A DNA stretch of 64,000 nucleotides, taken from positions 51,966-115,965 of the forward strand of contig JBAZYF010000002.1 in the NCBI GenBank assembly GCA_041659505.1, in the 5' to 3' direction. A model generated the notes under the pieces. That model made no database searches. It had not been told where the DNA came from and worked only from the letters and a program-made list of their open reading frames with translations. The DNA is from Parcubacteria group bacterium (GTDB lineage: Bacteria > Patescibacteriota > Minisyncoccia > Moranbacterales > UBA2206). Positions 49,280 to 64,000 of the stretch are shown here, piece after piece. The position numbers and the translations under genes were made by a program. How positions within the stretch are numbered: the first letter of the stretch is position 1; every line of letters begins with the position of its first letter.

Positions 49280-50950
49280 TTAATTATTCCAACTCCAATT
49301 ATAGCTAGGAACTTCGTCTGTAGATGGAAAATATTTATCGACCAAATTTTGTGCGATGGAAACAAACCGCCGTTGAGTTTTATCTTTATTTTTTATTCCC
49401 TTAGCAACTTCATTTTCGGCAAAGCCCATATTTGATTTTTCGCTTCTTTTTGAAATTTTATTTTTCAGCTTCCAGTCAACTAATGCTTTTGTTGGATCTC
49501 CACCCGCATAATACACAATATGTTTTGGCTTAGATTCTGGATGTTGTTGAAAATAATTTTCCCAATATTCAGAAGAAGGTATAGTGTTTTCTGCGAGTCG
49601 ATAGGGATTCAATTCATTTTCTTGAAAGTGTTTCGTTAAAATTTTTTCATATTCTTTCTTTTCATTTTTTGCACCCCATATATTAACCAATTTTTTGCGC
49701 AATTCTTTATCCGCCAAACATTTAGCCGAATCTGTGTTTTTAATTCCATAATCCCTAAACACTTCCTTAATTTTTTCAATTTGTTCCGCTGAATCAAGGC
49801 CATCTGCCTCTTCCGCTTTTCTAACTAAATCTTGAACAAAACCTGGTTTTTCACCAAATCTTGCCAATAATATTTCTTTGATTCCTTCTGACAGCTGAAT
49901 TTCTTTGTTTTGATCTAAATAATACTTTGATCCACTTTCTGCGTCAACCTTTGCATCTTGAGGAATAAACGCGAAACCCGCGTCAAGCGGTAATCCCTTT
50001 TCAATATCCGGCCAAATAAATTGGTCATTATTGCTACTGGTTGATGATAAATTTCCAGAAAATTCATACTGAGAAGCAATCATAGCCGAAGGAAAAGCAA
50101 AAAAAATCTCATTTCCGCTTTCAGAGCCATAAAAACTATCCGCCACTTCTTCGGTAGCAAGATGAATTGCACTTGAATCGGCAAAAGCATGTGGATCTCC
50201 TGTCACTGCCGCGTCAAGATGAACATGTATTCTACCTAATGCAGCATTACGATTCGGACAATCATCAAATTTCAAAAAATTAGCAATAGCCTGCTCCTTA
50301 GTGTTTTCTTGAAGAGCAATGCCAACCGCCGATCTAAGTTCTTTTTTTGCCAATACCACATTCAGCGTGTCACTATGTTCTCCAAGACCTTTTTGATGAT
50401 TACCAAGATTCGCATGATCTCTTACTCCGTGTCTAGTCACATGCGTCAACATCTCACCAGGAAACCGCTGAAGAAGTGTCACATAATCCTCCATTGAAAG
50501 TGAAGACAAATGATCTTCTGTAAAATTTTGAGCAATATCTTCCCTGGAATATGGCATTTCCGCCCATTTCTTTTTTTCTTTAGCATAAAAATCAGCAACC
50601 ATCAGTCTCGTTTCTTCAAGATCCTGCCTACCAGGCATCACTTCTGCGAGCTCATCTTCGATTTGGGATTGTTTGCCAAGTTGCGCATTCAATTCTCCTT
50701 TAATTTTTTTGATTGCAAAAAAATCTTTTATTTTTATAAAAAACGACGCACTATTATGATCTTCAACTTGATCGCGTAAGACTTCCAATTGTTTAACGAT
50801 TTCGCTTTTTTCTTGCTCTTTCTTTTCAACAGCATCCTTATCTTCAAAGTGCTTTTTTCTTTTTTCGCGAATTTCTTGAGCAAGTTGACTTCGTTCTTCC
50901 GGAGATTCCTTTTTCGAAAAATCTCTGATAAATCTTGGTTGTTCATTCAT
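49280..50950 (-). CDS. hypothetical protein (556 aa)
   Basis: long ORF with Lys/Glu-rich coiled-coil N-terminus; no motif recognised. Confidence 0.4.
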   Translation of the reverse strand: MNEQPRFIRDFSKKESPEERSQLAQEIREKRKKHFEDKDAVEKKEQEKSEIVKQLEVLRDQVEDHNSASFFIKIKDFFAIKKIKGELNAQLGKQSQIEDELAEVMPGRQDLEETRLMVADFYAKEKKKWAEMPYSREDIAQNFTEDHLSSLSMEDYVTLLQRFPGEMLTHVTRHGVRDHANLGNHQKGLGEHSDTLNVVLAKKELRSAVGIALQENTKEQAIANFLKFDDCPNRNAALGRIHVHLDAAVTGDPHAFADSSAIHLATEEVADSFYGSESGNEIFFAFPSAMIASQYEFSGNLSSTSSNNDQFIWPDIEKGLPLDAGFAFIPQDAKVDAESGSKYYLDQNKEIQLSEGIKEILLARFGEKPGFVQDLVRKAEEADGLDSAEQIEKIKEVFRDYGIKNTDSAKCLADKELRKKLVNIWGAKNEKKEYEKILTKHFQENELNPYRLAENTIPSSEYWENYFQQHPESKPKHIVYYAGGDPTKALVDWKLKNKISKRSEKSNMGFAENEVAKGIKNKDKTQRRFVSIAQNLVDKYFPSTDEVPSYNWSWNN

Positions 50951-51101: not shown

Positions 51102-53243
51102 TTATTCCGGCATCGTCGCGTTAAGCACAACATCCACCCGCTTTTCATTGAGCGGTATTTTGTTCACAAAAACCGGTGGCCAATATTCCACTTCGGCTTT
51201 TTCAATATTGGAATAAGTTTTCAGATAGTCGGCCAGTTCCTCGCTATTTTTTCCCAAAAGACCTTTTTTTAGATTTGCCAGATCAAGATTCGGTTGCATC
51301 ACGTTTGAAGCATGCATCTTAATCTCAATAGTTTCCGCCTTAAAATCGGGAACCGCTTTCCCATAATCAATAATCACCGACCCAGCATCGATATTAATCT
51401 TTCCATTGCCCGATTTAGAGATTGCAGAATTAGCAATTTTTTTAGCATCACTTTCAAAAAAAACCAACGCACGTACGTGTGCAGAGACCTTAATCTCAAA
51501 ACTATTAGTCGTCTCCCCTTCTGAATTAGACAAGCGATACACTGGCTCCTCGATCGCGATTGCATCATCCAAAATTATCGTACCAGAATCAGCAGAATCC
51601 TTCACTTTTTGCTTGACCGTGCTATTTATTTCCAAAGAAAGCTTATCTTTAGCATCACTGATATCCTTTGCTGTTACGACAGTAACTTCTTCATTTCCAT
51701 CCCCGCCACCTGACATAGCAACGGAAGATTTAGCATAAATCTTGGCGTACTTATCATTTTCGCTGTTTTTAAACCCGGGGATGGAAAAAGTTGTTGCGCC
51801 AATATTATATCCACTCCCCGCCTCGTCGGCTACAACTTCCGCCTCAACTACGCCCGGCTTAACTTCTCCGCTGACGCTGGTTGTTCCGGGAATGGTCACG
51901 CCTTGCACCAAGCGAAACACTTTTTGGTCATCCGTCATAAAGCGAGTCGTAGCCACCAATGGCTGAGGTGAAGAACTGAATTCATTATAAATCGTAATTT
52001 TTCCTTTGGCTTTTTGATTAGAGGCGTTTTTCTTGCCGGTCGCATTGAACGTTTTTGCCACTTCCTCATCGAACTCCAAAAGCTTTGCCGGAATCTCTGA
52101 TTTTTCATAATCAATGCCTTCGCTATTCACATTTCCCAAAAGCTCCATATCAACCGATTTGACTTCTTTTTTGGCTGAAATGGTAATGGTCGCCTTAGGA
52201 ACATACAAATAGGCCACATAAAGCAACCCAGCAGAAAAAGCGATCGCGCCCAAAATTGCCAGCACTCTAAGAAATTTACTGCCTCCACTACCTTTTTGCC
52301 CGCCGGCTTTTTCTGAATAATCCGTTTTATTTTTATCGGAAAAACTATTGGCATAAAAAAACTTTTCCAACTGCTGGTCTCGCGGATCGGTCTTTTTTCC
52401 CGGCGTGGAATTGTCCGGTTCATCTTGAAGATAATTCGGTCTGGTTTTGCTATAGGGAATTGGAAAATCATCCGTTGCTTCCGGTGGAGGCGTCGAAACA
52501 GTCTTTCTCGACATAGGGCGAATTGCACTATTTTGCACACCAAAAGCACCCAGTTCGCCAGCGACCGCCACACGAGTATTTGTCCGCAATGCCACTCTTT
52601 TGGGCACAGCAACAGGACGCGTAGCAACCGAAACGTCCATAGAAGAAATTCTTCCTTTATTGGGAAATCCATCTTCTTGACTATCCGATGCTCGATCAAA
52701 CTCATTTTTTTTATTACTAATTGAATCGCTTGTCAGCACAGGCCTTTCTCCTTTTATTTCTTCCAGCTCCTTCCAGTCATTTTCGCGACTAGTAAAGTTA
52801 TCTGTCTCATTATTGGATACGAAAAAATCCGCCGAACCGATTTTTTCCAATCTTCTTTTATTATACTCATCGGGATTTTCCAATTCAGCTGTTTCAATTT
52901 CTTTTTTCAACTCTCCTTTTTTTGGTTGAAATTTCCGGTTATCCATAGAATCAACAGCCACTTCTTCATAATCATCTTCTACTTTTTGTTGGATAGAAAT
53001 CCCCGCCTTTTGGATCAAAAGCTTTCCAAGTTTATCTTGAGTGACGATGCTTACCTTCAAACCAAGATTATCCGCCTCCTTACGCAAGAGTTTCAAGTTA
53101 ACGATGCTTTGGATCAGCAAGGCTCTTTTTGGTACGACAAGTACCGCTTCCGGCGCCTCGGCCTTTCTGAGCTTTTCCACGATCGAAGTTATTTCTTCAT
53201 CGATGTCGATATAAAATGTCTGATGCATATATGTCTGAACCAC
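51102..53243 (-). CDS. hypothetical bitopic membrane protein (cytoplasmic N-domain, low-complexity linker, TM, large extracytoplasmic domain)
   Basis: 713 aa; single TM (FLRVLAILGAIAFSAGLLYVAYLYV) mid-protein; co-oriented behind the FtsA-like gene. Confidence 0.45.
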   Translation of the reverse strand: MVQTYMHQTFYIDIDEEITSIVEKLRKAEAPEAVLVVPKRALLIQSIVNLKLLRKEADNLGLKVSIVTQDKLGKLLIQKAGISIQQKVEDDYEEVAVDSMDNRKFQPKKGELKKEIETAELENPDEYNKRRLEKIGSADFFVSNNETDNFTSRENDWKELEEIKGERPVLTSDSISNKKNEFDRASDSQEDGFPNKGRISSMDVSVATRPVAVPKRVALRTNTRVAVAGELGAFGVQNSAIRPMSRKTVSTPPPEATDDFPIPYSKTRPNYLQDEPDNSTPGKKTDPRDQQLEKFFYANSFSDKNKTDYSEKAGGQKGSGGSKFLRVLAILGAIAFSAGLLYVAYLYVPKATITISAKKEVKSVDMELLGNVNSEGIDYEKSEIPAKLLEFDEEVAKTFNATGKKNASNQKAKGKITIYNEFSSSPQPLVATTRFMTDDQKVFRLVQGVTIPGTTSVSGEVKPGVVEAEVVADEAGSGYNIGATTFSIPGFKNSENDKYAKIYAKSSVAMSGGGDGNEEVTVVTAKDISDAKDKLSLEINSTVKQKVKDSADSGTIILDDAIAIEEPVYRLSNSEGETTNSFEIKVSAHVRALVFFESDAKKIANSAISKSGNGKINIDAGSVIIDYGKAVPDFKAETIEIKMHASNVMQPNLDLANLKKGLLGKNSEELADYLKTYSNIEKAEVEYWPPVFVNKIPLNEKRVDVVLNATMPE

Positions 53244-53323
53244 TGATTAGCACATGAACGCACTGATTTCACAGATTAAATCATGTGTAATCAGAGTAAT
53301 CAGTGTTAATCTGTGGTTCTGAA

Positions 53324-54592
53324 TTATTTTTGAATCATTTTCACTGCTCTTCTTAATATCCCTGCCAGCACTTTTTCCTCCCCGACGATTTCCAAAACGA
53401 GATTGGCCAACCCCATTGGGGTAATGTCTTGCGGATCGCGAAGCATCCTGGTTTCATCGAAAATATTCACCACATCTTTGGGTTGCAAAAAACTGATCGT
53501 TGGCTCTTTGGCAAAAGGCAAAGTCTTGGTCCAGCGAGAAGTCAGAAGCGCTTTTTTGATTCCCGGCAATCCCGAACCACCACCGCAAAGGAATACCCGA
53601 TTTGGTAACATATCATTATCAGAAAATTCAGAGAGTGACAATTCCACTCCAGACAGCCAAACATTGCAATCATCAACAAACATCTTTTCAATTTTTTCAG
53701 AAACATCATCCCCCAACTTTCCTTCCGCATAACGAATTTTGAACGCTTCCGCCTCTTCAAACCCGACGCCCAGTTCCACCGCCAATCTTTTGGTAAAAGC
53801 CCGTCCACCCAAAGCAAACATTTTCGTGCCTTCCAGTCCACCATTGCGCACCAGCGCGATATCGGTCGTTCCTCCCCCAATATCAACAAAAATCGCACTG
53901 AAATCAACCACATCATCCACGCCCATCGATTTGGCTACGGCATATGGCTCGGCAGCGATAGAAAGCAGATCAAGCTTTAGAGCATCCGCAATCGACTGCA
54001 ATGCGCCCAAATGTACCATTGGCGCGTATGCATTAAAAACAGAGATGGAAACATCCTTGCCTTGAAAGCCCAAAGGATTGGTGATTTTATAGCCATCAAT
54101 CCGCACATCGACAATCGCCGCATTGATCAATTTTACTTCAATTTCACTGTGACCGGTTTCCCAAGCCAACTGCTGACGGATACGATCAAAAGCTTTCCAC
54201 TGGACTTTTTGAATGATATTTTTCAGTTCCGGAAAATCGATTCGCATTTCCGGCTTAATTCGCTCATAGTGCACGGTCGTTGTCGTTCCTTTCACTAGTT
54301 CTCCGGCAATCCCCACGATCGCTTTTTCCACTTTTTTGATCCCGGCCATTTTCACCGCCAAATCAATCGCGCGCTGACAATTCTCAATCACGCCGGAAAT
54401 ATCCGAGACAGCGCCACTATGCATATCCTTCAGTCCTTGTCGCGCCCGCCCAACGCCTTTCACGATTCCTGTGCTATTCTCAGAGTCCACTTTGAACACA
54501 AGCGCCTTGACCACTTCGGTACCAATATCAAGCGAAAGATAATAATCTGATGAAGATTTTCCAGTACTAAAAATTTTAGAAAAGATTCCCAT
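53324..54592 (-). CDS. ftsA: actin-like ATPase, FtsA-like (PilM not excluded)
   Basis: LDIGTEVVKALV phosphate-1, IVGIAGE, VDIGGGTTDIALV phosphate-2, insert resembling FtsA subdomain 1C. Confidence 0.6.
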   Translation of the reverse strand: MGIFSKIFSTGKSSSDYYLSLDIGTEVVKALVFKVDSENSTGIVKGVGRARQGLKDMHSGAVSDISGVIENCQRAIDLAVKMAGIKKVEKAIVGIAGELVKGTTTTVHYERIKPEMRIDFPELKNIIQKVQWKAFDRIRQQLAWETGHSEIEVKLINAAIVDVRIDGYKITNPLGFQGKDVSISVFNAYAPMVHLGALQSIADALKLDLLSIAAEPYAVAKSMGVDDVVDFSAIFVDIGGGTTDIALVRNGGLEGTKMFALGGRAFTKRLAVELGVGFEEAEAFKIRYAEGKLGDDVSEKIEKMFVDDCNVWLSGVELSLSEFSDNDMLPNRVFLCGGGSGLPGIKKALLTSRWTKTLPFAKEPTISFLQPKDVVNIFDETRMLRDPQDITPMGLANLVLEIVGEEKVLAGILRRAVKMIQK

Positions 54593-54669: not shown

Positions 54670-56831
54670 TTATTTAAAGATTTTTGCATCAGTCAAAAGT
54701 GCCGAAGCATAAATAGAAAAGACATCAAAAAATTCCAAGTCTTGGTTGGAAAAATCTGGCTTACTCTTGAAACCCAAAAAGATAAATGCTTTTGGTTTGC
54801 TTTTCAAGTACAGTGGTAGCAACATGCAATATTTCAACTTTTTATTTGCGCTGAGTTTTCCCAGTGGCAGATCCTTACAATATCCACGCGCGCAAGATCG
54901 AGCTTGAGCTAAAACTTTCAAAAGTTCTCGGCTCTGCGCTGAGAGACTTCTGATTTCTGCCGGAGTATAATTTTTTGCATCCGTGGCAGATAGCAACCTG
55001 AGCGCGCGCCCATTAACATCTTCGTATTTAAACAATGCCCCAAACCCAGCTGAGGAAAAATTAACCAAAGGACTAAGCATCCGCTCCAGGATTATTTTTT
55101 TTCGGTTTTTATAGCGCACAATCAACTGACTAAGTTCAGAAAGAAAGGAGATTCTCCGATTTATCGTACCGGCGTGCTGGTAGGATTCCAGCAGTTGTTC
55201 TTCTTTCAATTTCCGATCTGTCACATCATTGCCGACTGACAAAATTCCTTCCAGCTTACCCTGCTTGTCATAGAGCGCGCAATTGCGCCAGACGAGCCAG
55301 ACCCGCTCGCCGGTTTTTTTAATATTTTCATTTTCATTTTTCGTATAGTGCCCGGGATTTTTGATGATATCTTTCATCATCAGCGCCAAGTCCCGTCCGG
55401 ATGATTCCGTCTTGGGAATGATAGTGCCTACGGAATTGCGTCCGATAATTTCTTCTTTGCGATAACCAAAAAATTTCTCTGCAAATTCATTAAAAAAGGT
55501 GATGTGACCCCGCGTATCCAATCGTAAGATGACACTATTGACATTCTCGACCAATTCCCGATATTTTCTTTCGCTACCAATCAATTTATCCGTCGCATTA
55601 AATTTTTCCGCTCCTTCTCCGACTAGCGGAGTCAATGATTCAATCCGCCCTATTAGCTCCTGCGAAAACGCATCTTTCTTGTCATCTGCGAGATGTATTG
55701 CTCCAATAATATCCTTTTTACCATAAATCGGAATAAAAGCGACTGAGCAGTAATCCCCCCCCGAAAACATTTGATGCAATATCTATTCTGCTCTTTTCTC
55801 TTGCGCCCTGAGATATAGCCCAAACAGTCACCGGTATAAAAAGATTTTCCCTCCGTCTTACTGGAAATAGCTTGGATGCAGACACATCTTTTTCCATCTG
55901 CACCAACCACTGGCAAGTTTTGATCAGAACTATGATTAGGATTGGCATAAGAATCATACGGCAAATAACCATTCTGATCAAAAATTTTTATGCAGATATG
56001 TCTGCTTCGGGTAAGTTTTTTTACATACTCTAAAACAGCGTCAAAGTAGCTTGATCTAGAATCGGCCCTATTTGATAATCGTAGCAGCTTATTAGTTGTT
56101 AAGAGGTATCTTCTCGCCCGATCGTGACTTTGGCGTAATCGCAGACTCGAAACTCCAAAGGCGAGATCATCCGCTAATTCTTTCAAAAGAGCCGTTTCTT
56201 TATTGCTAAACGCATCTTGATCCTGGGCATAGATTGTCAGCGCTCCGAAAACATCCCCACTAGCGCCTTTATCCTCGAGTGGCAGTGCAATCGAAGAGGC
56301 AAAACCCCTTTTTAGTGCTTCTTTCCTCCAAGGAGCAAGTGCCAAGTCATCCGAAAGATATTGACCGTACTGAATCTTTCGCTCACGAATGGCGCGTCCG
56401 GTCGGACCTTGTCCGCGCAATGTTTTTTCCGACCAGCTAATATTGGCTTTCTCCAAATAACCTTCTTCGAAGCCGGTCTGCGCCACAGGAAGAACGTTTT
56501 TTTCCAAATCTTGCTCGGCACTACCCACCCAAGCCATCCGGTAACCACCAATTTTCACGATGATCCGACAAATATCCTTGAGCAGTTTTTTTTCTTGTTG
56601 AGCATGCACCAGCGCAACATTGCAAGCACTGAGCATTGATATATCTCGATTATGTTTTGCGAGTTCCGCCGTGCGTTCACTTACCCGCTTTTCTAATTCC
56701 TCATTAAGTTTTTTCAAATTCCGCTCCGCTTCAATGTGTTTTGTTTTATTATCAGCAACAAACTTATTTTTTTGTTCTCTTTTCATAGCGTTATTCCTAC
56801 CCCCCGCTAATTTATGCCTTCGAGATAACAC
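54670..56831 (-). pseudogene. GAF-GAF-PAS-GAF sensor protein split by a frameshift at a G8 tract (track ORFs 55653..56831 and 54670..55779)
   Basis: the two ORFs overlap by 127 nt; frames meet at CCCCCCCC (55755-55762); one extra G gives continuous ..YCIKCFRGGDYCSVAFIPIYGKKDIIGAIHLADD.. GAF sequence. Confidence 0.6.
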
Positions 56832-56856: not shown

Positions 56857-57801
56857 TCATTTCTGTCCAATGTTTTTTCTGGCTTTTAGGTACATCGGAA
56901 AAGCAACAAAACTTAAAAGCATCTGGAGAAAACGTCCCAGGATTGCTGCGATGATGATGAGTGAACTGGGCACGCCGAAATAACCGAAAAAAGTGACGTA
57001 GGCCCATTCCTTGAGACCGATGTTGTTGACCGTGATCGGAATGGATGAAACGATTGTGATCAGAAAAATGACCGACAGATAATTAAGCACTCCGATCTGC
57101 ACGCCCAAAGCCTTGAGTAGCACAAAGTTAGCCATGGCCATTCCAATCATCGCGAACAGCCCACCCCAAACGATTGAACGCCCCAGAATGCCATGATCAT
57201 GCGTGTAGCCTTGCAGTTCGCGAAAGAAATGCCGGATTTTTTCCGGCAGAAAGCGCGCGGATAATTTTTGTAAATATGCTAAATCTCTAATTTTAATAAT
57301 CAACACATCAACTGCCAAAAAACCGATGATCGCCAGATTGAAAAGCAAAAGAACTCGATTACCCAAAACAAATCGCCAATTCAACAAACTGAAAAACAAA
57401 GCTAGAATTGTAGCCGCAACCAGACCAGTCAACCGATCAATTACCACCGTTGACGCCGCCTCGGGATATTTTTTTTCAAGTCGCCCAATCTGATAGGCGC
57501 GATAAGTATCCCCGCCGATAAAAGACGGCATAAAATTATTCACAAACGTACCGGTCAGATAAAACTTAAAAAAGTCTCCGAAGGGAGCACGAATTTTTTT
57601 GTGATTAGCGAGAATTTTCCATTTGTACGACGAGATCATTATCCCCAAGAGTATCAACGCTAGATAGAGCGCGATCTGCCAGATTTGCACGCGCTGCAAG
57701 TTGACCCAGGCTTCTCGCCAGTCAACTTTAAGAATGACCCAGGTCAAAAGCCCCAGACTGACGGCAAGTTTCAAGATAAATTTAGCGAGTTTTTTTGTCA
57801 T
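56857..57801 (-). CDS. flippase-like membrane protein (lysylphosphatidylglycerol-synthase TM-region / UPF0104 family)
   Basis: 314 aa, ~8 TM, FIGGDTYRAYQIG motif; sits beside glycosyltransferases. Confidence 0.6.
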   Translation of the reverse strand: MTKKLAKFILKLAVSLGLLTWVILKVDWREAWVNLQRVQIWQIALYLALILLGIMISSYKWKILANHKKIRAPFGDFFKFYLTGTFVNNFMPSFIGGDTYRAYQIGRLEKKYPEAASTVVIDRLTGLVAATILALFFSLLNWRFVLGNRVLLLFNLAIIGFLAVDVLIIKIRDLAYLQKLSARFLPEKIRHFFRELQGYTHDHGILGRSIVWGGLFAMIGMAMANFVLLKALGVQIGVLNYLSVIFLITIVSSIPITVNNIGLKEWAYVTFFGYFGVPSSLIIIAAILGRFLQMLLSFVAFPMYLKARKNIGQK

Positions 57802-57818
57802 TCTTTATTTCTCAAGTA

Positions 57819-57863
57819 GTCGGTTCAATTCTCCCGAATTGAACCTTTTATTTCTAATCAGCT
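57819..57863 (-). repeat. 45-bp hairpin repeat, copy B (inverted relative to copy A)
   Basis: minus strand reads AGCTGATTAGAAATAAAAGGTTCAATTCGGGAGAATTGAACCGAC, identical to 25984-26028. Confidence 0.7.
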
Positions 57864-57883
57864 AAATTAAACTGGATATTTTC

Positions 57884-59062
57884 TTATTTCTTATTTTTAC
57901 TAACTTGCTCATACACCGCAAAATACTGCTCCGCCACACTTTTCCAGCTCATTTTTTCAGCGATTTTACGGCTTTCCATCCCCATGCTTTTTGTCAGTTC
58001 TGGATTATTGATCAATTTCTCCAGTTTTTCCGCGATATCATTACCATCCTTAAATTTCACAATATAGCCATTCGCTCCCTCAACAATCAATTCATCCGCT
58101 CCACCGGTTGGCGTCATAATGATCGGCATTCCGCTCGCCATCGCTTCAAGCATATTATTACTCATCCCCTCATTGTCAGACGGCAGAACAAACACATCTG
58201 ATGCCTGATGGTGATGCACATATTCCGTATTAGGATCAACTAGTCCAGTAAAAGAAACTTTATCTTCAATACCGAAATCTTTAACTTGTTGTCTCAACTC
58301 TCCCTCAGCGTTGCCTTCTCCGCCGGCAATAGTGAGGCGCAGATTGGGATATTTTTTGTAAATCTTCGCAAAAGCATCAATAGCATAGTTAAAACCTTTT
58401 CTTCTAGAAAGCCGAGACGCGCAAAGAATAGTAAAATTCTCATGGGGCACGGGAGATTCTTCAGGCTTAAAAACATCCGTATACACCCCGTTATAAATAA
58501 CTCCAATTTCTTGGCGCTGATTGCTTTTAAGCGCAAGCTTTTTAATCACCAAGCTATTAGCAATTACCGCAGCGGCCATTTTCCAAATGAACACGATCGG
58601 CCACTTGAGGATAAAATAAATCCGCATAAATCGCTCGCTGTAATACGGAACATCTGAACCACGAAGCGATACGACATAGGGCAAGCCAAATTCAAATCTT
58701 AAAAGCATCGAAATAAACCCGCACGGCACGGTAAAAAACGAATGAGTCAAATCATAGGGGGTTTTTTCACGTTTCGCTTTTTTAATCAATTTTCTGGCAA
58801 AAAAGAAAGCTTTCCACGAATAAACGATTAATTGTTTTTGCGATTGATACATCGCATTTTCTTTATTTTTACCGATTGGCAAACGATGGACATGAATATT
58901 TTCGCTCAGGTTGTCTAAATGATATTCACTATCAAAGGAAGAAGTAATTAGATCGACTTCTAAATCAGAATATTTAACATATTCTTTCAATATGTTTTCG
59001 GTAGCATGAGCCGCTCCCCCGCCGAGTGGCGGATATTCATAGTTGAAAAATAATACTTTCAT
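57884..59062 (-). CDS. glycosyltransferase family 4 (GT-B, retaining)
   Basis: EGMSNNMLEAMASGMPII E-x7-E motif; GGADELIVEGANGYIV. Confidence 0.75.
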   Translation of the reverse strand: MKVLFFNYEYPPLGGGAAHATENILKEYVKYSDLEVDLITSSFDSEYHLDNLSENIHVHRLPIGKNKENAMYQSQKQLIVYSWKAFFFARKLIKKAKREKTPYDLTHSFFTVPCGFISMLLRFEFGLPYVVSLRGSDVPYYSERFMRIYFILKWPIVFIWKMAAAVIANSLVIKKLALKSNQRQEIGVIYNGVYTDVFKPEESPVPHENFTILCASRLSRRKGFNYAIDAFAKIYKKYPNLRLTIAGGEGNAEGELRQQVKDFGIEDKVSFTGLVDPNTEYVHHHQASDVFVLPSDNEGMSNNMLEAMASGMPIIMTPTGGADELIVEGANGYIVKFKDGNDIAEKLEKLINNPELTKSMGMESRKIAEKMSWKSVAEQYFAVYEQVSKNKK

Positions 59063-59071
59063 AAATTCAAA

Positions 59072-60406
59072 CTATAAAGAAGCACGGCCGATTGAATGAT
59101 AATCAAAGCCGAGTTCCTTCATCTTTTTTGGATCATAAAGTAACCGTCCATCAAAAACTACCGCCTGTTTCAAGCGCTTTTTAACCTCATCAAAATCAAC
59201 ACTGCGAAACTCTTTCCATTCGGTGATGATAAGCAATCCGTCAGTTCCGTCAAGTGCATCGTACTTACTTTCAAAATAAGTAATATTTTCATTGTCGCCA
59301 AAATATTGCGGAGTTTTTGCCATCTTCATCGCTTCGGGATCATGCGCCTGGATCTTCGCTCCGCGAGAAAGTAAATCATTAATAATAGTGATGGCCGCCG
59401 ATTCGCGCATATCATCCGTTCCCGCCTTGAAAGCCAGTCCCCAGACGGAAAATGTCTTGCCTTTCAAATCTTCGCCATTTTTTTTCACCACCATATCACT
59501 CAAGACATGTTTTTGTTTTTCATTAGTAGCTAGTGTTTGCTTGAACATCTCAGCTTCATAACCGCAATCTTTGGCAATTTTTACAATCGCTCTAACATCT
59601 TTGGGAAAACAGCTACCGCCGAAACCGACGGAAGCATAAATAAAAGCCTCGCCTATTCTAGGATCAGCGCCAATGGCTTTTCTAATATGATCAAAATCCG
59701 CTCCGACGCACGCGCAAATATTGGCCAAGTCATTGCTCAGTGAAACCTTAGCCGCCAAAAAACTATTCGCAGCGTATTTGACAGTTTCCGCCGTTTTCGG
59801 ATCCATGGCATAGAAACGGCTTTCTCGACGCATGAATGGCGCATAGAGTTCTCGCATTGTTTCAATTACAGCCGGATCATCTGCACCGATCACCACCCGA
59901 CTTGGTTCCATAAAATCTTCCACGGCGGTTCCTTGCGCCAAAAATTCTGGATTGCTTACCACGAAAAAAGGAATGTTGGATCCGCGCTTTTCCTGCTCTT
60001 CCGCAATCGTTTTTTTGACCAACTCGGCCGTACCGACTGGTACAGTCGATTTATCCACCACAATCAAAGGATGGTCGATAATCTGTCCCACTGAACGCGC
60101 CACATCCAACACATGACTAAGGTCTGCACTGCCATCTTCGTTGGGCGGAGTGCCGACAGCGATAAACAAGATATTGCTCGCTTTCAAGGCTTCTTCGAAA
60201 TTAGTCGTATAGCGCAAAGTTTTCGCTTTGAGATTTTTTTCCACCAATTCGTCTAGGCCATCTTCGTGGAGTGGCACTTTGCCCGCACTAAACTGATCAA
60301 TCTTCTTTTGATCTTTGTCAACACAAATAACTGTATTGCCCATCTCGGCAAAACACGCACCGGTAACTGAACCGACATAGCCTGTTCCAATAATTGCTAC
60401 TTTCAT
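59072..60406 (-). CDS. ugd: UDP-glucose 6-dehydrogenase family (nucleotide-sugar dehydrogenase)
   Basis: Rossmann MKVAIIGTGYVGSV, catalytic GGSCFPKD signature, 444 aa. Confidence 0.85.
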   Translation of the reverse strand: MKVAIIGTGYVGSVTGACFAEMGNTVICVDKDQKKIDQFSAGKVPLHEDGLDELVEKNLKAKTLRYTTNFEEALKASNILFIAVGTPPNEDGSADLSHVLDVARSVGQIIDHPLIVVDKSTVPVGTAELVKKTIAEEQEKRGSNIPFFVVSNPEFLAQGTAVEDFMEPSRVVIGADDPAVIETMRELYAPFMRRESRFYAMDPKTAETVKYAANSFLAAKVSLSNDLANICACVGADFDHIRKAIGADPRIGEAFIYASVGFGGSCFPKDVRAIVKIAKDCGYEAEMFKQTLATNEKQKHVLSDMVVKKNGEDLKGKTFSVWGLAFKAGTDDMRESAAITIINDLLSRGAKIQAHDPEAMKMAKTPQYFGDNENITYFESKYDALDGTDGLLIITEWKEFRSVDFDEVKKRLKQAVVFDGRLLYDPKKMKELGFDYHSIGRASL

Positions 60407-60428
60407 ATATTTTTTCTGAGATTAATTA

Positions 60429-61367
60429 TTAACTTTCAATAATTTCTTTGATCGAATAGTTCATATGTCCTTGACTTTTGTAATAATTCTTGATAAGAAT
60501 GTCAGCAAGAAGTCCAAAGATAAATAGCTGGATACCGATGAGCACCAAAAATATGCCCATGAGTGGCCAAATTTTGTCGGAGAGCGAAGTGTGAAAAAAT
60601 ATTTTCATTACCGCCATCCAGATCAAAATCAAAAATCCCGCAAATGACAAAACCATACCGCTCCCACCAAAAAGATGGAGTGGTCGGTTAGCATATTTAC
60701 GCCAAAACCAGATCGAAACCATATCCACAAAACCCTTGATTCCTCTTTTCCAGTTATAGAAAGTTACGCCGTGAATTCTGGGATGATGAGATACTTTCAC
60801 CTCTCCGACTCGATAGCCCTGCATTTCCAAAATAGCTGGAATAAACCTATGCATCTCGCCAAAAAGATCAATGTCTTTGAAACACTCTCTTTTGTAGGCT
60901 TTGAGACTGCAACCTGAATCATGAATCTTGTCCTGAATAAGCACTTTACGCAAAAGGTTAGCTCCCCTGGAAAAAAACTTTTTAGAAAAACTATCCTTGC
61001 GTTTATGGCGCCAGCCAGCCACAATATCATAACCTTTTTCCATTTCTTCCAAAAGCAAGTGAATATCCGCCGGGTCATTTTGCAAATCTCCATCTGTAGT
61101 AATTATGATCTCTCCCTTGGAATTTTTTATTCCAGCATCAAATCCGGCCGTCTGACCAAACCATTTTCGAAAATTAATCAATTTGAGTGGAGAGAGTCCT
61201 TTGCAATTTTCAAGCGTCTTGTCCGTTGATCCATCGTTGATAAAAATAATTTCATAACTTTTCCCCATTTTTTGACAGGCCTCGACAATCCGCCGGTGCA
61301 TTTCTTTTACATTATCCTCCTCATTGTTTAGCGGTACGATGATTGACAGTTCAATTTTTTCATCCAT
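60429..61367 (-). CDS. GT2 polyprenyl-phosphate glycosyltransferase (ArnC/GtrB/CsbB-like), C-terminal TM helices
   Basis: LSIIVPLNNEE, NDGSTD, TDGDLQ (DXD) motifs; two C-terminal TM helices. Confidence 0.8.
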   Translation of the reverse strand: MDEKIELSIIVPLNNEEDNVKEMHRRIVEACQKMGKSYEIIFINDGSTDKTLENCKGLSPLKLINFRKWFGQTAGFDAGIKNSKGEIIITTDGDLQNDPADIHLLLEEMEKGYDIVAGWRHKRKDSFSKKFFSRGANLLRKVLIQDKIHDSGCSLKAYKRECFKDIDLFGEMHRFIPAILEMQGYRVGEVKVSHHPRIHGVTFYNWKRGIKGFVDMVSIWFWRKYANRPLHLFGGSGMVLSFAGFLILIWMAVMKIFFHTSLSDKIWPLMGIFLVLIGIQLFIFGLLADILIKNYYKSQGHMNYSIKEIIES

Positions 61368-61389
61368 AAATCGATGAGTTAATAGTTAA

Positions 61390-61731
61390 TTAATTCTTAT
61401 TGATTATAACACCATCCTTCTCTTCGTGCAATTCAAAAAAGGCCATCGTAGCCGTGAAAATCATCAAGTAATATGCCCAGATTGCGCTGGTTTCCGCCCA
61501 ATCCTCCTTTTTCGCTACAAGCAAAGCGGCGGTTGCAACGAGCAAAATGATCGCCCCACCGGCCGGAAAGCGACTAGAAATCGGGTGTAGAAGAAATAGT
61601 ACAAATAAAATGAAAAAAATCGCGTTGGCAATTTCCCATTGGAAATAAAATGCCATCCCGACGGTGAACAAAACCAGTACCGCTTCCAGAAAGATTTTGA
61701 GAGAAATTTTGGGAAAAATATTTTTTGACAT
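61390..61731 (-). CDS. small 4-TM membrane protein (DUF2304/GtrA-like position)
   Basis: 113 aa polytopic; the position normally held by GtrA-like/DUF2304 proteins. Confidence 0.4.
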   Translation of the reverse strand: MSKNIFPKISLKIFLEAVLVLFTVGMAFYFQWEIANAIFFILFVLFLLHPISSRFPAGGAIILLVATAALLVAKKEDWAETSAIWAYYLMIFTATMAFFELHEEKDGVIINKN

Positions 61732-61739
61732 AGTGATGA

Positions 61740-63392
61740 TTATTTTAATTTCAATTCAGCCGTTATTTTCAAATTCTTAAGCGCAAAAGACTTGCCCTTG
61801 CTCGTGTCGCTCGGATCATAGGTAATTTTGAAATAAACCGTGCGCGCCTCTTTTGTGGGAACAATATCCGCATCAAACACTTGTACTGATTCTTCCGTTA
61901 CAACTGGAACTGTATTATCAGCGACAGCTAAAGAATCTTGCGCTTCTGAAGTATCACTGCTGGAACCATCAACGCTTTCGCCGTTATCAGCTTCAATAGC
62001 AGTCGTCGCCAACTCAGAACCAGCCGAAAAGGGCAAATCGACCCAGTCATTTTGATCAAAAGAATAACTCACCTTGACCTTTTTCCAGCCGGCTTTCACT
62101 TGCGAAGCGGAAAAATTCAATTTACTGATCGGGTAAAGCATATTTACGGCGTAGCTAAAACTAGCATTATCTTTGGCGGGAGCATAAATAATTTTGTCGC
62201 TTTCGCTAAATTCCGTCCCGGCGGACGCCCCAGACAAATCGAACAAATCAACAAATTTCCCTTCGGTCGCATAAGAATACCGGCCGCTGCCCTTGCCCAA
62301 ATCTTCAATCTTGGCGCCATTGAAAATTTTCATTCCGCCTTCCTGCAACAACTGCGCGCCATAAATTTTGAAATATAAATCACCATCGATCGGGTACATC
62401 TCCTTTCCCTTTTTCACTACAGCGATTCCCGCAGAATATTTATCCTCCTTGCTTCCCTTGAGTTCCAAATAATTCTGTTTGCTGACATCGACTTTCGAAT
62501 TGTCCAGACTGATGAGATAATATTGGTTTTTTTCCAGCATCCCGAACAAGGGAAAAAGAAAAGTGCCGTCAGCTTGGCGATATTTCTCGATGCTACTAAA
62601 AGAAAAGGCCGTATCGACAATAACAGCCCCGTCATAGGAAACACTTTCACCGTCATAGTTCACTTTGCGCAAACTCAATGTGTATTGCCGGCTGCCCGAA
62701 TTGAGATTTTTGTTTATATCAATCTTAAGACTCACGGCGGAAATCACCGAGTCTTTCGCCTGAAAAACTTGCCCTAAAATTGTTTTGCTATCTTTCAGCC
62801 AAGGAAAAGCATAATCAGAATCCGTCTGGCTGGCGGTAACTGCCTCCAAATTCGTTTCGCCCACCAGCGTCTTTTTCATCGCTACCAATTCTGCCTGGCT
62901 GGTCGCATTGAGCTTGGTGATGCCGACGGCTTTGATGAAAATATTTCCCGCTGAATTGGGGTCCTTTTTTTGAAACAATAGACTGTCAAAGCCATCCGAC
63001 AAATAGAAAAATACTTCTTGCGGTTGGAATTTGTCAGAAGGAACGAGATTCAGCTCGGCAATCTGACTTTCCTTCTCGGTATAAGTATTTAGATCCATCA
63101 GCACCGGCATCGCTGAATCGCTTTTTTCCAAAAAAGTCACGCGATAATAGCCAGAGGGCTGATCTTTAAATATATCATCGACATAATAGTAACCGTTATC
63201 CTTTGTCAGTTGCGGTTTTTCCGCCACGGTGCTCAAACATTTCCCCGAAGCGCAAGCTTCAGTCGTTTTTTTATGATTAGCATAAAGCGCCTGATTAATC
63301 ACAAACACCAACCCCAAAAAAGCCACCACCAAAAAAATGCGCTTATTTATCTTAAGAATATTAATTAATTTTTTCCCAAAATTATTTTGCAT
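61740..63392 (-). CDS. hypothetical secreted/anchored protein (N-terminal signal anchor, Ser/Thr/Lys-rich)
   Basis: start at MQNNFGKK..; hydrophobic LVVAFLGLVFVINQALYA; no motif recognised. Confidence 0.45.
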   Translation of the reverse strand: MQNNFGKKLINILKINKRIFLVVAFLGLVFVINQALYANHKKTTEACASGKCLSTVAEKPQLTKDNGYYYVDDIFKDQPSGYYRVTFLEKSDSAMPVLMDLNTYTEKESQIAELNLVPSDKFQPQEVFFYLSDGFDSLLFQKKDPNSAGNIFIKAVGITKLNATSQAELVAMKKTLVGETNLEAVTASQTDSDYAFPWLKDSKTILGQVFQAKDSVISAVSLKIDINKNLNSGSRQYTLSLRKVNYDGESVSYDGAVIVDTAFSFSSIEKYRQADGTFLFPLFGMLEKNQYYLISLDNSKVDVSKQNYLELKGSKEDKYSAGIAVVKKGKEMYPIDGDLYFKIYGAQLLQEGGMKIFNGAKIEDLGKGSGRYSYATEGKFVDLFDLSGASAGTEFSESDKIIYAPAKDNASFSYAVNMLYPISKLNFSASQVKAGWKKVKVSYSFDQNDWVDLPFSAGSELATTAIEADNGESVDGSSSDTSEAQDSLAVADNTVPVVTEESVQVFDADIVPTKEARTVYFKITYDPSDTSKGKSFALKNLKITAELKLK

Positions 63393-64000
63393 TTTCTTTT
63401 TTTTGAACAATATTACTATTATGCCTCTTTTCTTTCCAAAAAACAAGCGTCAGTAGCGAAAAAAAGATTGCCCCAAGCGAGATGATTCCGCCCAAGTATA
63501 GATAACTTTGCGGGCGATAATATAGGCTCAGTGCTGTACGACCATCATTATCCTTAGCGCAAGCATCAGCTATCTCGCGCGGGTAAATGAGGAATGCATT
63601 TAGCCCGGCATCAGTCATCTTGTGATTTTCCACCGGCAAGATCGCTTTTTTTCCCAGCAGCGCATACCAAGGAGTATTGCCACAAACTACCTGCCAATCC
63701 GGGTGATATTTTTCCGCAAAATTGACCCGGACCGGACCGTCAAAATTTTTGAGCCTAAAATCCCAGTGCGCCGAATTTTCCAGGGAATAGTCCACCGGCG
63801 CAAAAGTAATCTCGCGATGGATCGTCTCTGGCTCGTCTGTCAGATAAATCCGCGGACGCGCCGTCTCGTTTTCAAAAATCGTTTTTTCTCCAAGCCCCAA
63901 GTCCAGCTTTTTCCATTCAGGATTAGCGACAAGATTTTTCACCATATAAAAATTTGCTTGATCACTCACGAGATAGCGCACCGCGGACTGTGAAAGCAAG
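63382..64000 (-). CDS. C-terminal part of a large membrane protein, YfhO-like (partial; runs off the window)
   Basis: extracytoplasmic region ending in a C-terminal TM (YLYLGGIISLGAIFFSLLTLVFW); pairing with the GT2 recalls the CsbB-YfhO system. Confidence 0.45.
   Translation of the reverse strand, partial: LLSQSAVRYLVSDQANFYMVKNLVANPEWKKLDLGLGEKTIFENETARPRIYLTDEPETIHREITFAPVDYSLENSAHWDFRLKNFDGPVRVNFAEKYHPDWQVVCGNTPWYALLGKKAILPVENHKMTDAGLNAFLIYPREIADACAKDNDGRTALSLYYRPQSYLYLGGIISLGAIFFSLLTLVFWKEKRHNSNIVQKKENAK

What the first reader, a model, noticed from the sequence alone, without database searches (positions are those of the whole stretch)
54670..56831. GAF/PAS sensor gene interrupted at a G8 homopolymer; one extra G restores a ~750-aa reading frame
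Track ORFs 55653..56831 and 54670..55779 overlap by ~127 nt and are both GAF/PAS-like. They switch frame exactly at the run of eight C (eight G on the coding strand) at 55755-55762. With nine G the sequence reads ..NRYCIKCFRGGDYCSVAFIPIYGKKDIIGAIHLADDKK.., a continuous GAF domain. This could be a homopolymer sequencing error, a genuine pseudogene, or a slipped-strand phase-variable switch of a signalling protein. The protein has no recognisable output domain. It sits directly upstream of an FtsA-like gene and a large membrane protein.
Basis: partly seen in the sequence, partly recalled or inferred. Interest (0 to 1): 0.55.

Follow-up and report, generated by a model that had tools for sequence, protein, structure and literature searches.

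The report
Sensor gene broken at G8 run
A multi-domain GAF/PAS sensor gene of an uncultured groundwater Parcubacteria (Moranbacteria-like) bacterium carries a real one-base frameshift at a run of eight G, most likely a young inactivating slippage mutation rather than a sequencing error or a proven genetic switch.

Summary
Two minus-strand ORFs (55653-56831 and 54670-55779) are the two halves of one sensor gene. They change frame exactly at the only G/C run of 7 or more in the window, G8 at 55755-55762. G9 restores one 705-aa protein and G6 restores a 704-aa one. The domain order is coiled coil, GAF, GAF, PAS, GAF, with no output domain.

It is very unlikely to be an assembly error. The exact frameshifted product occurs in NCBI, JGI, ENA and two Logan assemblies. 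Three contigs I could read are 100% identical and all carry G8. One source sample was Illumina HiSeq. Twenty-five other long homopolymers sit inside intact genes.

Intact 806-aa orthologues read CGT TGC GGC with no G run, and one occurs in the same groundwater sample. The window gene has also lost an N-terminal PAS-like domain and one cysteine of a conserved four-cysteine motif, and its second GAF domain has diverged fast. The domains after the break show no extra divergence, so the break is young.

Best reading: a recent slippage frameshift (G9 to G8) silencing a decaying sensor. I found no support for programmed frameshifting. Phase variation remains untested because no reads were available. 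This is an ordinary finding of low interest.

The parts
54670..56786 (-). Whole sensor gene as it would read with G9 (705 aa) or G6 (704 aa): coiled coil, GAF1, GAF2, PAS, GAF3.
   Evidence: In-silico restoration. It aligns collinearly over 99% of its length with intact 806-aa orthologues P0001-P0004. Pfam finds GAF_2 at 8.6e-28 and PAS at 6.6e-13. AF2 model, pLDDT 75.9.
55755..55762 (-). G8 homopolymer (C8 on the + strand) where the frame changes. In frame 0 it reads CG G_GGG_GGG ATT.
   Evidence: It is the only G/C run of 7 or more in the 64 kb. The two tblastn HSPs meet here. The orthologues read CGT TGC GGC (Arg-Cys-Gly) at this site.
55653..56786 (-). Upstream ORF as it stands, 377 aa: coiled coil, GAF1 and GAF2 lacking its last two strands, followed by a 34-residue out-of-frame tail. 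NCBI annotates it as MFA5961749.1.
   Evidence: In the model the last two GAF2 strands (E348-355, E360-368) lie after the break.
54670..55770 (-). Downstream ORF as it stands. NCBI calls it as 366 aa from ATG 55770 (MFA5961748.1); JGI and Logan call it as 321 aa from TTG 55635. It holds the end of GAF2, the PAS domain and GAF3.
56154..56597 (-). GAF1 (residues 64-211).
   Evidence: Pfam GAF_2. It is 75% identical to the orthologues, and its count of unique changes equals theirs, 11 vs 11.
55672..56057 (-). GAF2 (residues ~244-372), which contains the frameshift. It is the fast-diverged domain. The conserved CxC...CxxC motif has lost its fourth cysteine, which is now a Gly codon inside the G run.
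   Evidence: Pfam GAF_2 at 1.1e-6 on the isolated segment. Identity to the orthologues is 33-42% before the break, against 64% among the orthologues themselves. Cysteine columns are shown.
55216..55566 (-). PAS domain (residues 408-524), downstream of the break and strongly conserved.
   Evidence: Pfam PAS at 6.6e-13. It is 89% identical to P0001. dN is 0.048 against a saturated dS. Unique changes are 2 vs 4.
54688..55101 (-). GAF3 (residues 563-700), the C-terminal domain. There is no catalytic or DNA-binding output domain.
   Evidence: GAF_2 at 1.3e-4, below the gathering score, on the isolated segment. The AF2 model shows GAF topology. Foldseek matches are only tandem GAF/PAS arrays.
56763..56768 (-). 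Junction of an in-frame deletion of ~101 codons. It removed the N-terminal PAS-like domain (SFPxLNPNPVIELD...) that all the orthologues carry.
   Evidence: Alignment A1. tblastn finds no remnant of orthologue residues 1-103.
56800..56805 (-). Second G run (G6) in the 5' leader, 14-19 nt upstream of the ATG in an SD-like stretch GGGGGGTAGGA.
   Evidence: Two of the window's six G/C runs of 6 or more lie in this one gene (binomial P = 0.016).

Best explanation
The gene encodes a cytoplasmic, probably dimeric, multi-sensor protein: coiled coil, GAF, GAF, PAS, GAF joined by long helices. It has no enzymatic or DNA-binding output, so it would act through protein-protein contacts. In this strain it carries a genuine DNA-level frameshift produced by replication slippage in a G homopolymer. 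The most economical path is as follows. The conserved Arg-Cys-Gly (CGN TGC GGN) of the second GAF domain mutated to Arg-Gly-Gly (CGG GGG GGG). That destroyed one cysteine of a four-cysteine motif and created a G9 run. The run then lost one G to give G8. Translation now ends 34 codons after the tract. The resulting 377-aa product lacks the last two core strands of GAF2 and has no PAS or GAF3, so the sensor is off. The event is evolutionarily young. It is the latest lesion in a gene that had already lost its N-terminal PAS-like domain and had a fast-diverging GAF2. Shown here: the tract, the frame switch, its reproducibility, the absence of the tract in orthologues, the other lesions, and the lack of extra divergence downstream. 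Inferred: the direction of the change (G9 to G8 rather than G6 to G8), loss of function, and the mode of signalling.
For: G8 and the frame switch are. The exact 377-aa frameshifted product is present in NCBI, JGI, ENA and Logan, on contigs of 247,503, 245,533, 245,541, 6,814, 6,451 and 4,260 bp. L001-L003 are 100% identical to the window and all carry G8. The G9 and G6 full-length proteins are absent from the 15-billion-protein collection. JGI sample 3300014208 was sequenced on Illumina HiSeq 2x150. Twenty-five of 37 long homopolymers lie deep inside intact ORFs, and none of the others breaks a gene. The orthologues read CGT TGC GGC TTT with no tract. GAF2 shows accelerated change, 35 vs 13 unique changes, chi2 = 10. 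Downstream domains are not accelerated (PAS 2 vs 4, GAF3 15 vs 16), and PAS dN is 0.048 against a saturated dS. The break falls before the last two strands of GAF2.
Against: All the assemblies represent a single strain, probably from one site, so reproducibility does not show that the allele is stable over evolutionary time. The downstream 363 codons are free of stops and perfectly conserved. That fits a very recent break, but it fits equally well a gene still expressed through reversion or recoding. No read-level data were available, so minority G9 alleles cannot be excluded.
Confidence: 0.6

Rival explanations
1. The tract is an evolved slipped-strand phase-variable switch (a contingency locus). 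It toggles between G9 (or G6) ON and G8 OFF at high frequency, giving the population a mix of cells with and without the sensor. The sampled populations happen to be mostly OFF.
For: A G run of 8 inside a coding region is within the length range of known phase-variable tracts, and even C6/C7 switches the sensor kinase gene bvgS (PMC1891110). A single-base change restores the frame. The downstream frame is undecayed. A second G6 run sits in the same gene's leader.
Against: No length polymorphism was found: every assembly has G8 and no G9 or G6 protein is in the collection. The tract is absent from all orthologues, including the one 93% identical to P0001 in the same sample. A G/C run of 8 or more is expected by chance in 19% of such windows. 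The gene carries other signs of decay. No paper links phase variation, homopolymers and CPR bacteria.
Confidence: 0.15
2. The frameshift is compensated during expression. Either ribosomes slip -1 on G_GGG_GGG, or RNA polymerase adds a G, so some full-length 705-aa sensor is made from G8 DNA.
For: In frame 0 the tract forms a formal X_XXY_YYZ heptamer (CG G_GGG_GGG), and a -1 shift gives exactly the G9 product. Low-level compensatory frameshifting on a G run is documented for herpesvirus thymidine kinase (PMC5009743). The downstream frame is intact.
Against: There is no stimulatory RNA structure downstream (z = +0.5 and +0.95, weaker than shuffles). There is no SD-like element upstream. The frameshift is not conserved in any orthologue. 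From general knowledge, GGG in the A site is not a canonical slippery codon, and productive bacterial transcriptional slippage is known for A/T runs.
Confidence: 0.08
3. It is a sequencing or assembly artefact: the true genome has G9 and the gene is intact.
For: Homopolymers are the classic site of indel errors, and G9 would give a clean ORF.
Against: G8 appears in at least two separate SRA runs plus JGI, NCBI and ENA assemblies made with different assemblers. One source sample was sequenced on Illumina HiSeq. Twenty-five other runs of 8-9 bases lie in intact genes.
Confidence: 0.05
4. It is a functional gene split. The two halves are expressed as separate proteins, a 377-aa GAF protein and a 321-366-aa PAS-GAF protein, which work apart or reassemble.
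For: Gene callers annotate both halves as proteins. Relatives have GAF-only and PAS-GAF proteins of about 500-680 aa (P0007-P0011).
Against: The break lies inside GAF2, before its last two core strands, not in a linker. No orthologue is split there. There is no convincing ribosome-binding site before either candidate internal start. The 34-residue out-of-frame tail has no homologue.
Confidence: 0.05

Closest known systems
Bordetella pertussis bvgS homopolymer frameshift (C6 ON / C7 OFF)
   Same: A one-base length change in a G/C homopolymer inside the coding region of a signal-sensing protein truncates it (PMC1891110).
   Different: For bvgS both alleles are observed, they switch reversibly in culture, and there is a phenotype. 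Here only the OFF length (G8) has been seen. The protein is not a histidine kinase, and the organism is an uncultured Parcubacteria/Moranbacteria-like bacterium.
Herpes simplex virus thymidine kinase G7-to-G8 'savior' indel with low-level compensatory frameshifting
   Same: A frameshift lies in a run of G, and the downstream frame could be reached by rare slippage on the run itself (PMC5009743).
   Different: That case involves a eukaryotic ribosome, a virus and a drug-selected mutation, and the residual activity was shown by experiment. Nothing here indicates compensation.
Ordinary young pseudogenes created by homopolymer slippage in reduced bacterial genomes
   Same: There is a single frameshift at a homopolymer, an otherwise intact ORF, and intact orthologues in relatives. 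The search listing includes endosymbiont examples such as PMC3017870, which I did not read in detail.
   Different: The endosymbiont cases mostly involve poly(A) tracts, and some are rescued by transcriptional slippage. This one is a G tract in a free-living or episymbiotic groundwater CPR bacterium.
Output-less tandem GAF/PAS sensor arrays (bacteriophytochromes XccBphP and RpBphP1, the PDE2A and CyaB2 tandem GAF modules)
   Same: The fold is the same: GAF and PAS domains strung on long signalling helices (Foldseek E of 1e-10 to 1e-15). XccBphP and RpBphP1 also lack a catalytic output.
   Different: Sequence identity is only 10-12%. No bilin-binding features were tested. The orthologues instead carry a four-cysteine motif in GAF2. 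That hints at a metal or Fe-S site as in the chloroplast sensor kinase GAF domain (PMC6949291, abstract only), which I did not test.

Membership tests
Orthologous group of 806-aa PAS-GAF-GAF-PAS-GAF 'PAS domain S-box' proteins of Moranbacteria-like CPR (P0001-P0004, L016) | Collinear full-length homology | tested here: met
   57-65% identity over 99% of the restored protein. There are two tblastn HSPs only, and they meet at the tract.
Orthologous group of 806-aa PAS-GAF-GAF-PAS-GAF 'PAS domain S-box' proteins of Moranbacteria-like CPR (P0001-P0004, L016) | Conserved gene neighbourhood (GT2, UDP-glucose dehydrogenase, GT4, LPG_synthase_TM, sensor) | tested here: met
   The upstream order is the same in L004, L005 and L016, apart from an extra alginate-lyase gene there.
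Orthologous group of 806-aa PAS-GAF-GAF-PAS-GAF 'PAS domain S-box' proteins of Moranbacteria-like CPR (P0001-P0004, L016) | N-terminal PAS-like domain (SFPxLNPNPVIELD...) | tested here: not met
   About 101 residues are missing through an in-frame deletion, with no remnant.
Orthologous group of 806-aa PAS-GAF-GAF-PAS-GAF 'PAS domain S-box' proteins of Moranbacteria-like CPR (P0001-P0004, L016) | Four conserved cysteines in GAF2 (CxC ... CxxC) | tested here: not met
   Three are kept (C301, C303, C340). The fourth is replaced by a Gly codon inside the G run, and a non-homologous Cys lies a few residues later in DYC.
Orthologous group of 806-aa PAS-GAF-GAF-PAS-GAF 'PAS domain S-box' proteins of Moranbacteria-like CPR (P0001-P0004, L016) | Uninterrupted reading frame | tested here: not met
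   There is a frameshift at G8.
Slipped-strand phase-variable (contingency) locus | Long homopolymer inside or just upstream of the coding region | tested here: met
   G8 at 55755-55762, plus G6 in the leader.
Slipped-strand phase-variable (contingency) locus | Tract-length polymorphism among cells, isolates or samples | tested here: not met
   All three readable contigs have G8. The exact frameshifted product occurs in every source, and the G9 and G6 proteins are absent. Read-level heterogeneity cannot be tested with these tools.
Slipped-strand phase-variable (contingency) locus | Tract longer or more frequent than composition predicts | tested here: not met
   0.21 runs are expected per 64 kb, and 19% of Markov simulations contain at least one.
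Slipped-strand phase-variable (contingency) locus | Tract maintained in orthologues of related strains or species | tested here: not met
   L004, L005, L006, L016 and L017 read CG[TCA] TG[CT] GG[CAT], with no run.
Programmed -1 ribosomal frameshift site | Slippery heptamer X_XXY_YYZ in the zero frame | tested here: inconclusive
   G_GGG_GGG fits the formal pattern and the required direction. From general knowledge, Y = G is not a canonical slippery A-site codon.
Programmed -1 ribosomal frameshift site | Downstream stimulatory hairpin or pseudoknot, or an upstream SD-like element | tested here: not met
   The 100 nt downstream fold no better than shuffles (z = +0.51; z = +0.95 for the span across the tract). 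No AGGAGG-like element lies upstream.
Programmed -1 ribosomal frameshift site | Frameshift conserved among homologues | tested here: not met
   All homologues found are single ORFs.
Pseudogene (decaying gene) | Disrupted reading frame relative to intact orthologues | tested here: met
Pseudogene (decaying gene) | Further lesions or relaxed constraint | tested here: inconclusive
   There is a domain deletion, a lost cysteine and accelerated change in GAF2. However, GAF1, PAS and GAF3 evolve at the same rate as in the intact orthologues, and there are no in-frame stops.
Pseudogene (decaying gene) | Function covered by an intact copy in the same genome | not testable with these tools
   There is no paralogue in the window. 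Intact homologues L016 (806 aa) and L017 (978 aa) occur in the same sample on other contigs. L016 repeats the whole syntenic region, so it belongs to another genome. The genome of L017 is unknown.

The most novel reading that the evidence does not exclude
The G8/G9 tract is a working ON/OFF switch, by DNA slippage or by leaky recoding on the run, for a cytoplasmic redox or metal-type GAF/PAS sensor in a Candidate Phyla Radiation bacterium. It would be the first contingency locus described in this ultra-small, uncultured group, acting on a signalling protein rather than a surface structure.
Probability: 0.15. Interest if true: 0.55.

Novelty: new member of a known kind. Interest (0 to 1): 0.2.

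Why it matters
As it stands, the result is mainly useful for annotation. The two NCBI/JGI proteins (MFA5961749.1 and MFA5961748.1) are halves of one frameshifted gene and should be flagged as such. It also gives a clean snapshot of gene decay in a CPR genome: domain deletion, then loss of a ligand cysteine that created a mutable G run, then slippage. If read data showed mixed tract lengths, it would become the first evidence for slipped-strand phase variation in CPR bacteria. That would be of moderate interest for how tiny-genome organisms generate phenotypic heterogeneity.

Tried and rejected
1. Exact-pattern DNA scans of genome contigs and metagenome contigs for the tract flanks with a variable gap (N5-14) found nothing, not even the G8 allele. 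Those collections evidently do not hold this contig, so they could not reveal tract variants.

2. I looked for closer relatives through the at least 90% identical FtsA-like cluster (P0126, P0127). Those genomes keep the pair of FtsA-like gene and large membrane protein, but have other genes upstream and no sensor within reach, so they gave no closer orthologue of the tract.

3. P0123 looked like a second strain with the same split. It is the same sequence with the TTG start translated as L.

4. Other overlapping same-strand ORF pairs in the window were suspected of being frameshifts. They are separate genes: PriA/Def, S9/L13/L17 and FtsE/FtsX.

5. I tested the idea of a frameshift-stimulating RNA structure and rejected it.

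6. Rfam and tRNA scans of the window found nothing relevant to the locus.

7. Foldseek against the PDB returned only generic GAF/PAS arrays and no hidden output domain.

8. dN/dS by segment was attempted, but dS is saturated, so it supports only the qualitative statement of long-term constraint.

9. Literature searches for phase variation with homopolymers in CPR bacteria returned no paper. The SRA run accessions were not found in any paper, so I could not confirm that SRR18595301 comes from a different sampling date.
Full report
**1. The observation**

On the minus strand the sequence reads AAA TGT TTT CGG GGG GGG ATT ACT GCT, with eight G at 55755-55762. ORF 55653..56831 ends 34 codons after the tract, in frame 0. 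ORF 54670..55779 is open in the -1 frame from just before the tract, and the two overlap by 127 nt.

Inserting one G (G9) gives one ORF of 705 aa from the ATG at 56786. Removing two G (G6) gives 704 aa. Even from the furthest GTG the ORF is only 720 aa.

The tract is the only G/C run of 7 or more in the window. It is not improbable in itself: a second-order Markov model expects 0.21 such runs of 8 or more per 64 kb, and 19% of simulated windows have one. What is not chance is the position of the frame change. Intact orthologues hit the region by tblastn as exactly two HSPs in two frames, and these meet within one codon of the tract.

**2. What the gene is**

Pfam finds GAF_2 (8.6e-28, three stretches) and PAS (6.6e-13). 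On the isolated segments, the second GAF scores 1.1e-6 and the C-terminal 180 residues score 1.3e-4, below the gathering score.

An AlphaFold2 model of the G9 protein (mean pLDDT 75.9) shows this layout:
- a long N-terminal helix (2-60)
- GAF1
- helix (195-240)
- GAF2 (244-372)
- helix (376-416)
- PAS (419-521)
- helix (523-558)
- GAF3 (563-700)

Foldseek against the PDB returns only tandem GAF/PAS arrays such as phytochromes, PDE2A and CyaB2, at 10-12% identity. There is no kinase, cyclase, phosphodiesterase or DNA-binding domain. That last point is an inference.

**3. Orthologues**

The restored protein matches 806-aa proteins P0001-P0004 (57-64% identity, 99% coverage) and the 978-aa P0005. 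The loci of P0001 and P0002 share the upstream gene order GT2, UDP-glucose dehydrogenase, GT4, LPG_synthase_TM and then the sensor, with an extra alginate-lyase gene. They are true orthologues.

A further intact 806-aa copy, 93% identical to P0001 and with the same synteny, lies on contig Ga0172379_10000947. The P0005 sequence lies on Ga0172379_10000691. Both contigs come from the same groundwater metagenome that yielded one of the G8 contigs.

None of these has a G run. They read CG[TCA] TG[CT] GG[CAT] TTT, which is Arg-Cys-Gly-Phe.

The FtsA-like gene and the large membrane protein downstream form a conserved pair in relatives, but those relatives have different upstream genes. The sensor's adjacency to that pair therefore carries no functional message.

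**4. Is G8 real?**

- The exact 377-aa upstream product, including its out-of-frame tail, is on record in NCBI (MFA5961749.1, 'Parcubacteria group bacterium' MAG), JGI 3300014208, ENA, and Logan assemblies of SRR6484325 and SRR18595301. The contigs are 247,503, 245,533, 245,541, 6,814, 6,451 and 4,260 bp long.
- The three contigs I could read are 100% identical to the window over 4.3-6.8 kb, and each has G8.
- Neither the G9 nor the G6 full-length protein exists in the 15-billion-sequence collection.
- JGI 3300014208 is groundwater well GW1 next to a Southern Ontario municipal landfill, sampled in July 2016 and sequenced on Illumina HiSeq 2x150 (PMC9723747, PMC10076291).
- Within the window, 25 of 37 homopolymers (A/T runs of 8 or more, G/C runs of 7 or more) lie at least 50 codons inside intact long ORFs. 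The remainder sit at gene ends or between genes. All other overlapping ORF pairs are distinct genes.

An assembly artefact is therefore unlikely, and I give it about 5%. All these assemblies represent one strain, so they show reproducibility, not evolutionary stability.

**5. Other lesions in the same gene**

- The window gene lacks the ~101-residue N-terminal PAS-like domain (SFPxLNPNPVIELD...) that every orthologue has. The deletion is in frame, keeps the first seven codons and leaves no remnant.
- The orthologues share four cysteines in GAF2: CxC, then the CxxC of KCVRCG. In the window the last Cys codon has become GGG, which is the middle of the G run. The mutation that removed the cysteine is thus the one that created the slippery tract.
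- By segment, GAF1 is 75% identical to the orthologues and PAS is 75-89%, as conserved as the intact orthologues are to each other. GAF2 is only 33-42% identical before the break and 52-57% after it, against 64-73% among the orthologues.
- A Tajima-type relative-rate count with P0004 as outgroup gives window vs P0001 unique changes of 11/11 (GAF1), 2/4 (PAS), 15/16 (GAF3) and 9/6 (GAF2 after the break).
- For GAF2 before the break the count is 35/24 against P0001, and 35/13 against P0002 (chi2 = 10).
- Synonymous sites are saturated, while PAS has dN = 0.048.

The parts downstream of the break have therefore evolved under the same constraint as intact genes for essentially all of their history. 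The break is either young or compensated.

**6. Consequence of the break**

In the model, the break at residues 343/344 falls in a low-confidence loop. It lies just before the last two core strands of GAF2 (348-355 and 360-368) and the connecting helix. The 377-aa product cannot complete GAF2 and lacks PAS and GAF3. The break is not in a linker, which argues against a functional split. No orthologue is split there.

**7. Recoding**

Frame 0 presents CG G_GGG_GGG, a formal X_XXY_YYZ heptamer, and a -1 slip would give the G9 protein. However, the 100 nt downstream fold no better than shuffles (z = +0.51; z = +0.95 for a span across the tract). There is no SD-like element upstream, and no homologue carries the shift.

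Low-level compensatory frameshifting on a G run is known for herpesvirus thymidine kinase (PMC5009743). A trickle of full-length protein therefore cannot be excluded, but nothing suggests a programmed site.

**8. Phase variation**

The closest precedent is bvgS of Bordetella pertussis, where C6/C7 in the coding region of a sensor kinase switches virulence phases (PMC1891110). A G8/G9 tract would be at least as mutable.

A second G6 run sits in the same gene's leader. That places two of the window's six G/C runs of 6 or more in one 2.2-kb gene (P = 0.016).

Against phase variation: only one length has been seen, the tract is lineage-specific, it is not over-represented, and the gene shows independent decay. 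I found no paper on homopolymer phase variation in CPR bacteria. Read pile-ups are the decisive test, and these tools cannot run it.

**9. Verdict**

This is a real, reproducible, lineage-specific G8 frameshift in a sensor with the domain order coiled coil, GAF, GAF, PAS, GAF. Most probably (about 0.6) it is a recent -1 slippage from G9 that silences a gene already losing parts.

The rivals are:
- an evolved phase switch (0.15)
- expression-level compensation (0.08)
- an artefact (0.05)
- a functional split (0.05)

It is a new example of a well-known kind of event, and its interest is low unless reads reveal mixed tract lengths.

Noticed in passing
window 56800-56805 (minus strand, 14-19 nt upstream of ATG 56786): There is a second G run (G6) inside the SD-like leader GGGGGGTAGGA of the same sensor gene. 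Two of the window's six G/C runs of 6 or more fall in this 2.2-kb gene (binomial P = 0.016).
   Followed up: partly
window 51102-54592 (minus strand); L008-L015: The 422-aa FtsA/PilM-like protein is followed by a 656-738-aa protein with no Pfam match. This pair is conserved in several Moranbacteria-like genomes, with FtsA-like identity of at least 90%, while the upstream genes differ (MurJ, UDP-glucose dehydrogenase, the sensor). It looks like a two-gene module of unknown function.
   Followed up: partly
window 56857-61731 vs L004 and L005: Identity to the L004 genome is strongly mosaic across the adjacent glycosylation genes: GT2 94%, UDP-glucose dehydrogenase 87%, GT4 55%, LPG_synthase_TM 71%, sensor PAS domain 89%, sensor GAF2 33%. 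This suggests recombination among co-occurring strains.
   Followed up: partly
L004 6662-7921, L005 6202-7887, L016 962-2611: The orthologous loci carry an Alginate_lyase2-domain gene between LPG_synthase_TM and the sensor. That gene is absent from the window, where the two are separated by only about 70 nt.
   Followed up: no
Orthologues P0001-P0005, GAF2 (window residues 301, 303, 340 and the lost 343): The second GAF domain of the intact orthologues carries a conserved CxC...CxxC four-cysteine motif. This suggests a metal or Fe-S site and a redox or metal-sensing role for the family. It has not been tested.
   Followed up: partly
L016 (Ga0172379_10000947) and L017 (Ga0172379_10000691): The same groundwater metagenome (GW1) contains at least three lineages of this sensor: an intact 806-aa form, an intact 978-aa form with an extra PAS domain, and the frameshifted, N-terminally deleted form in the window.
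   Followed up: partly
window 49280-50950 and 61740-63446 (minus strand): Two large ORFs of 556 and 568 aa have no Pfam match. The second has a 583-aa counterpart at the same position in L005.
   Followed up: no
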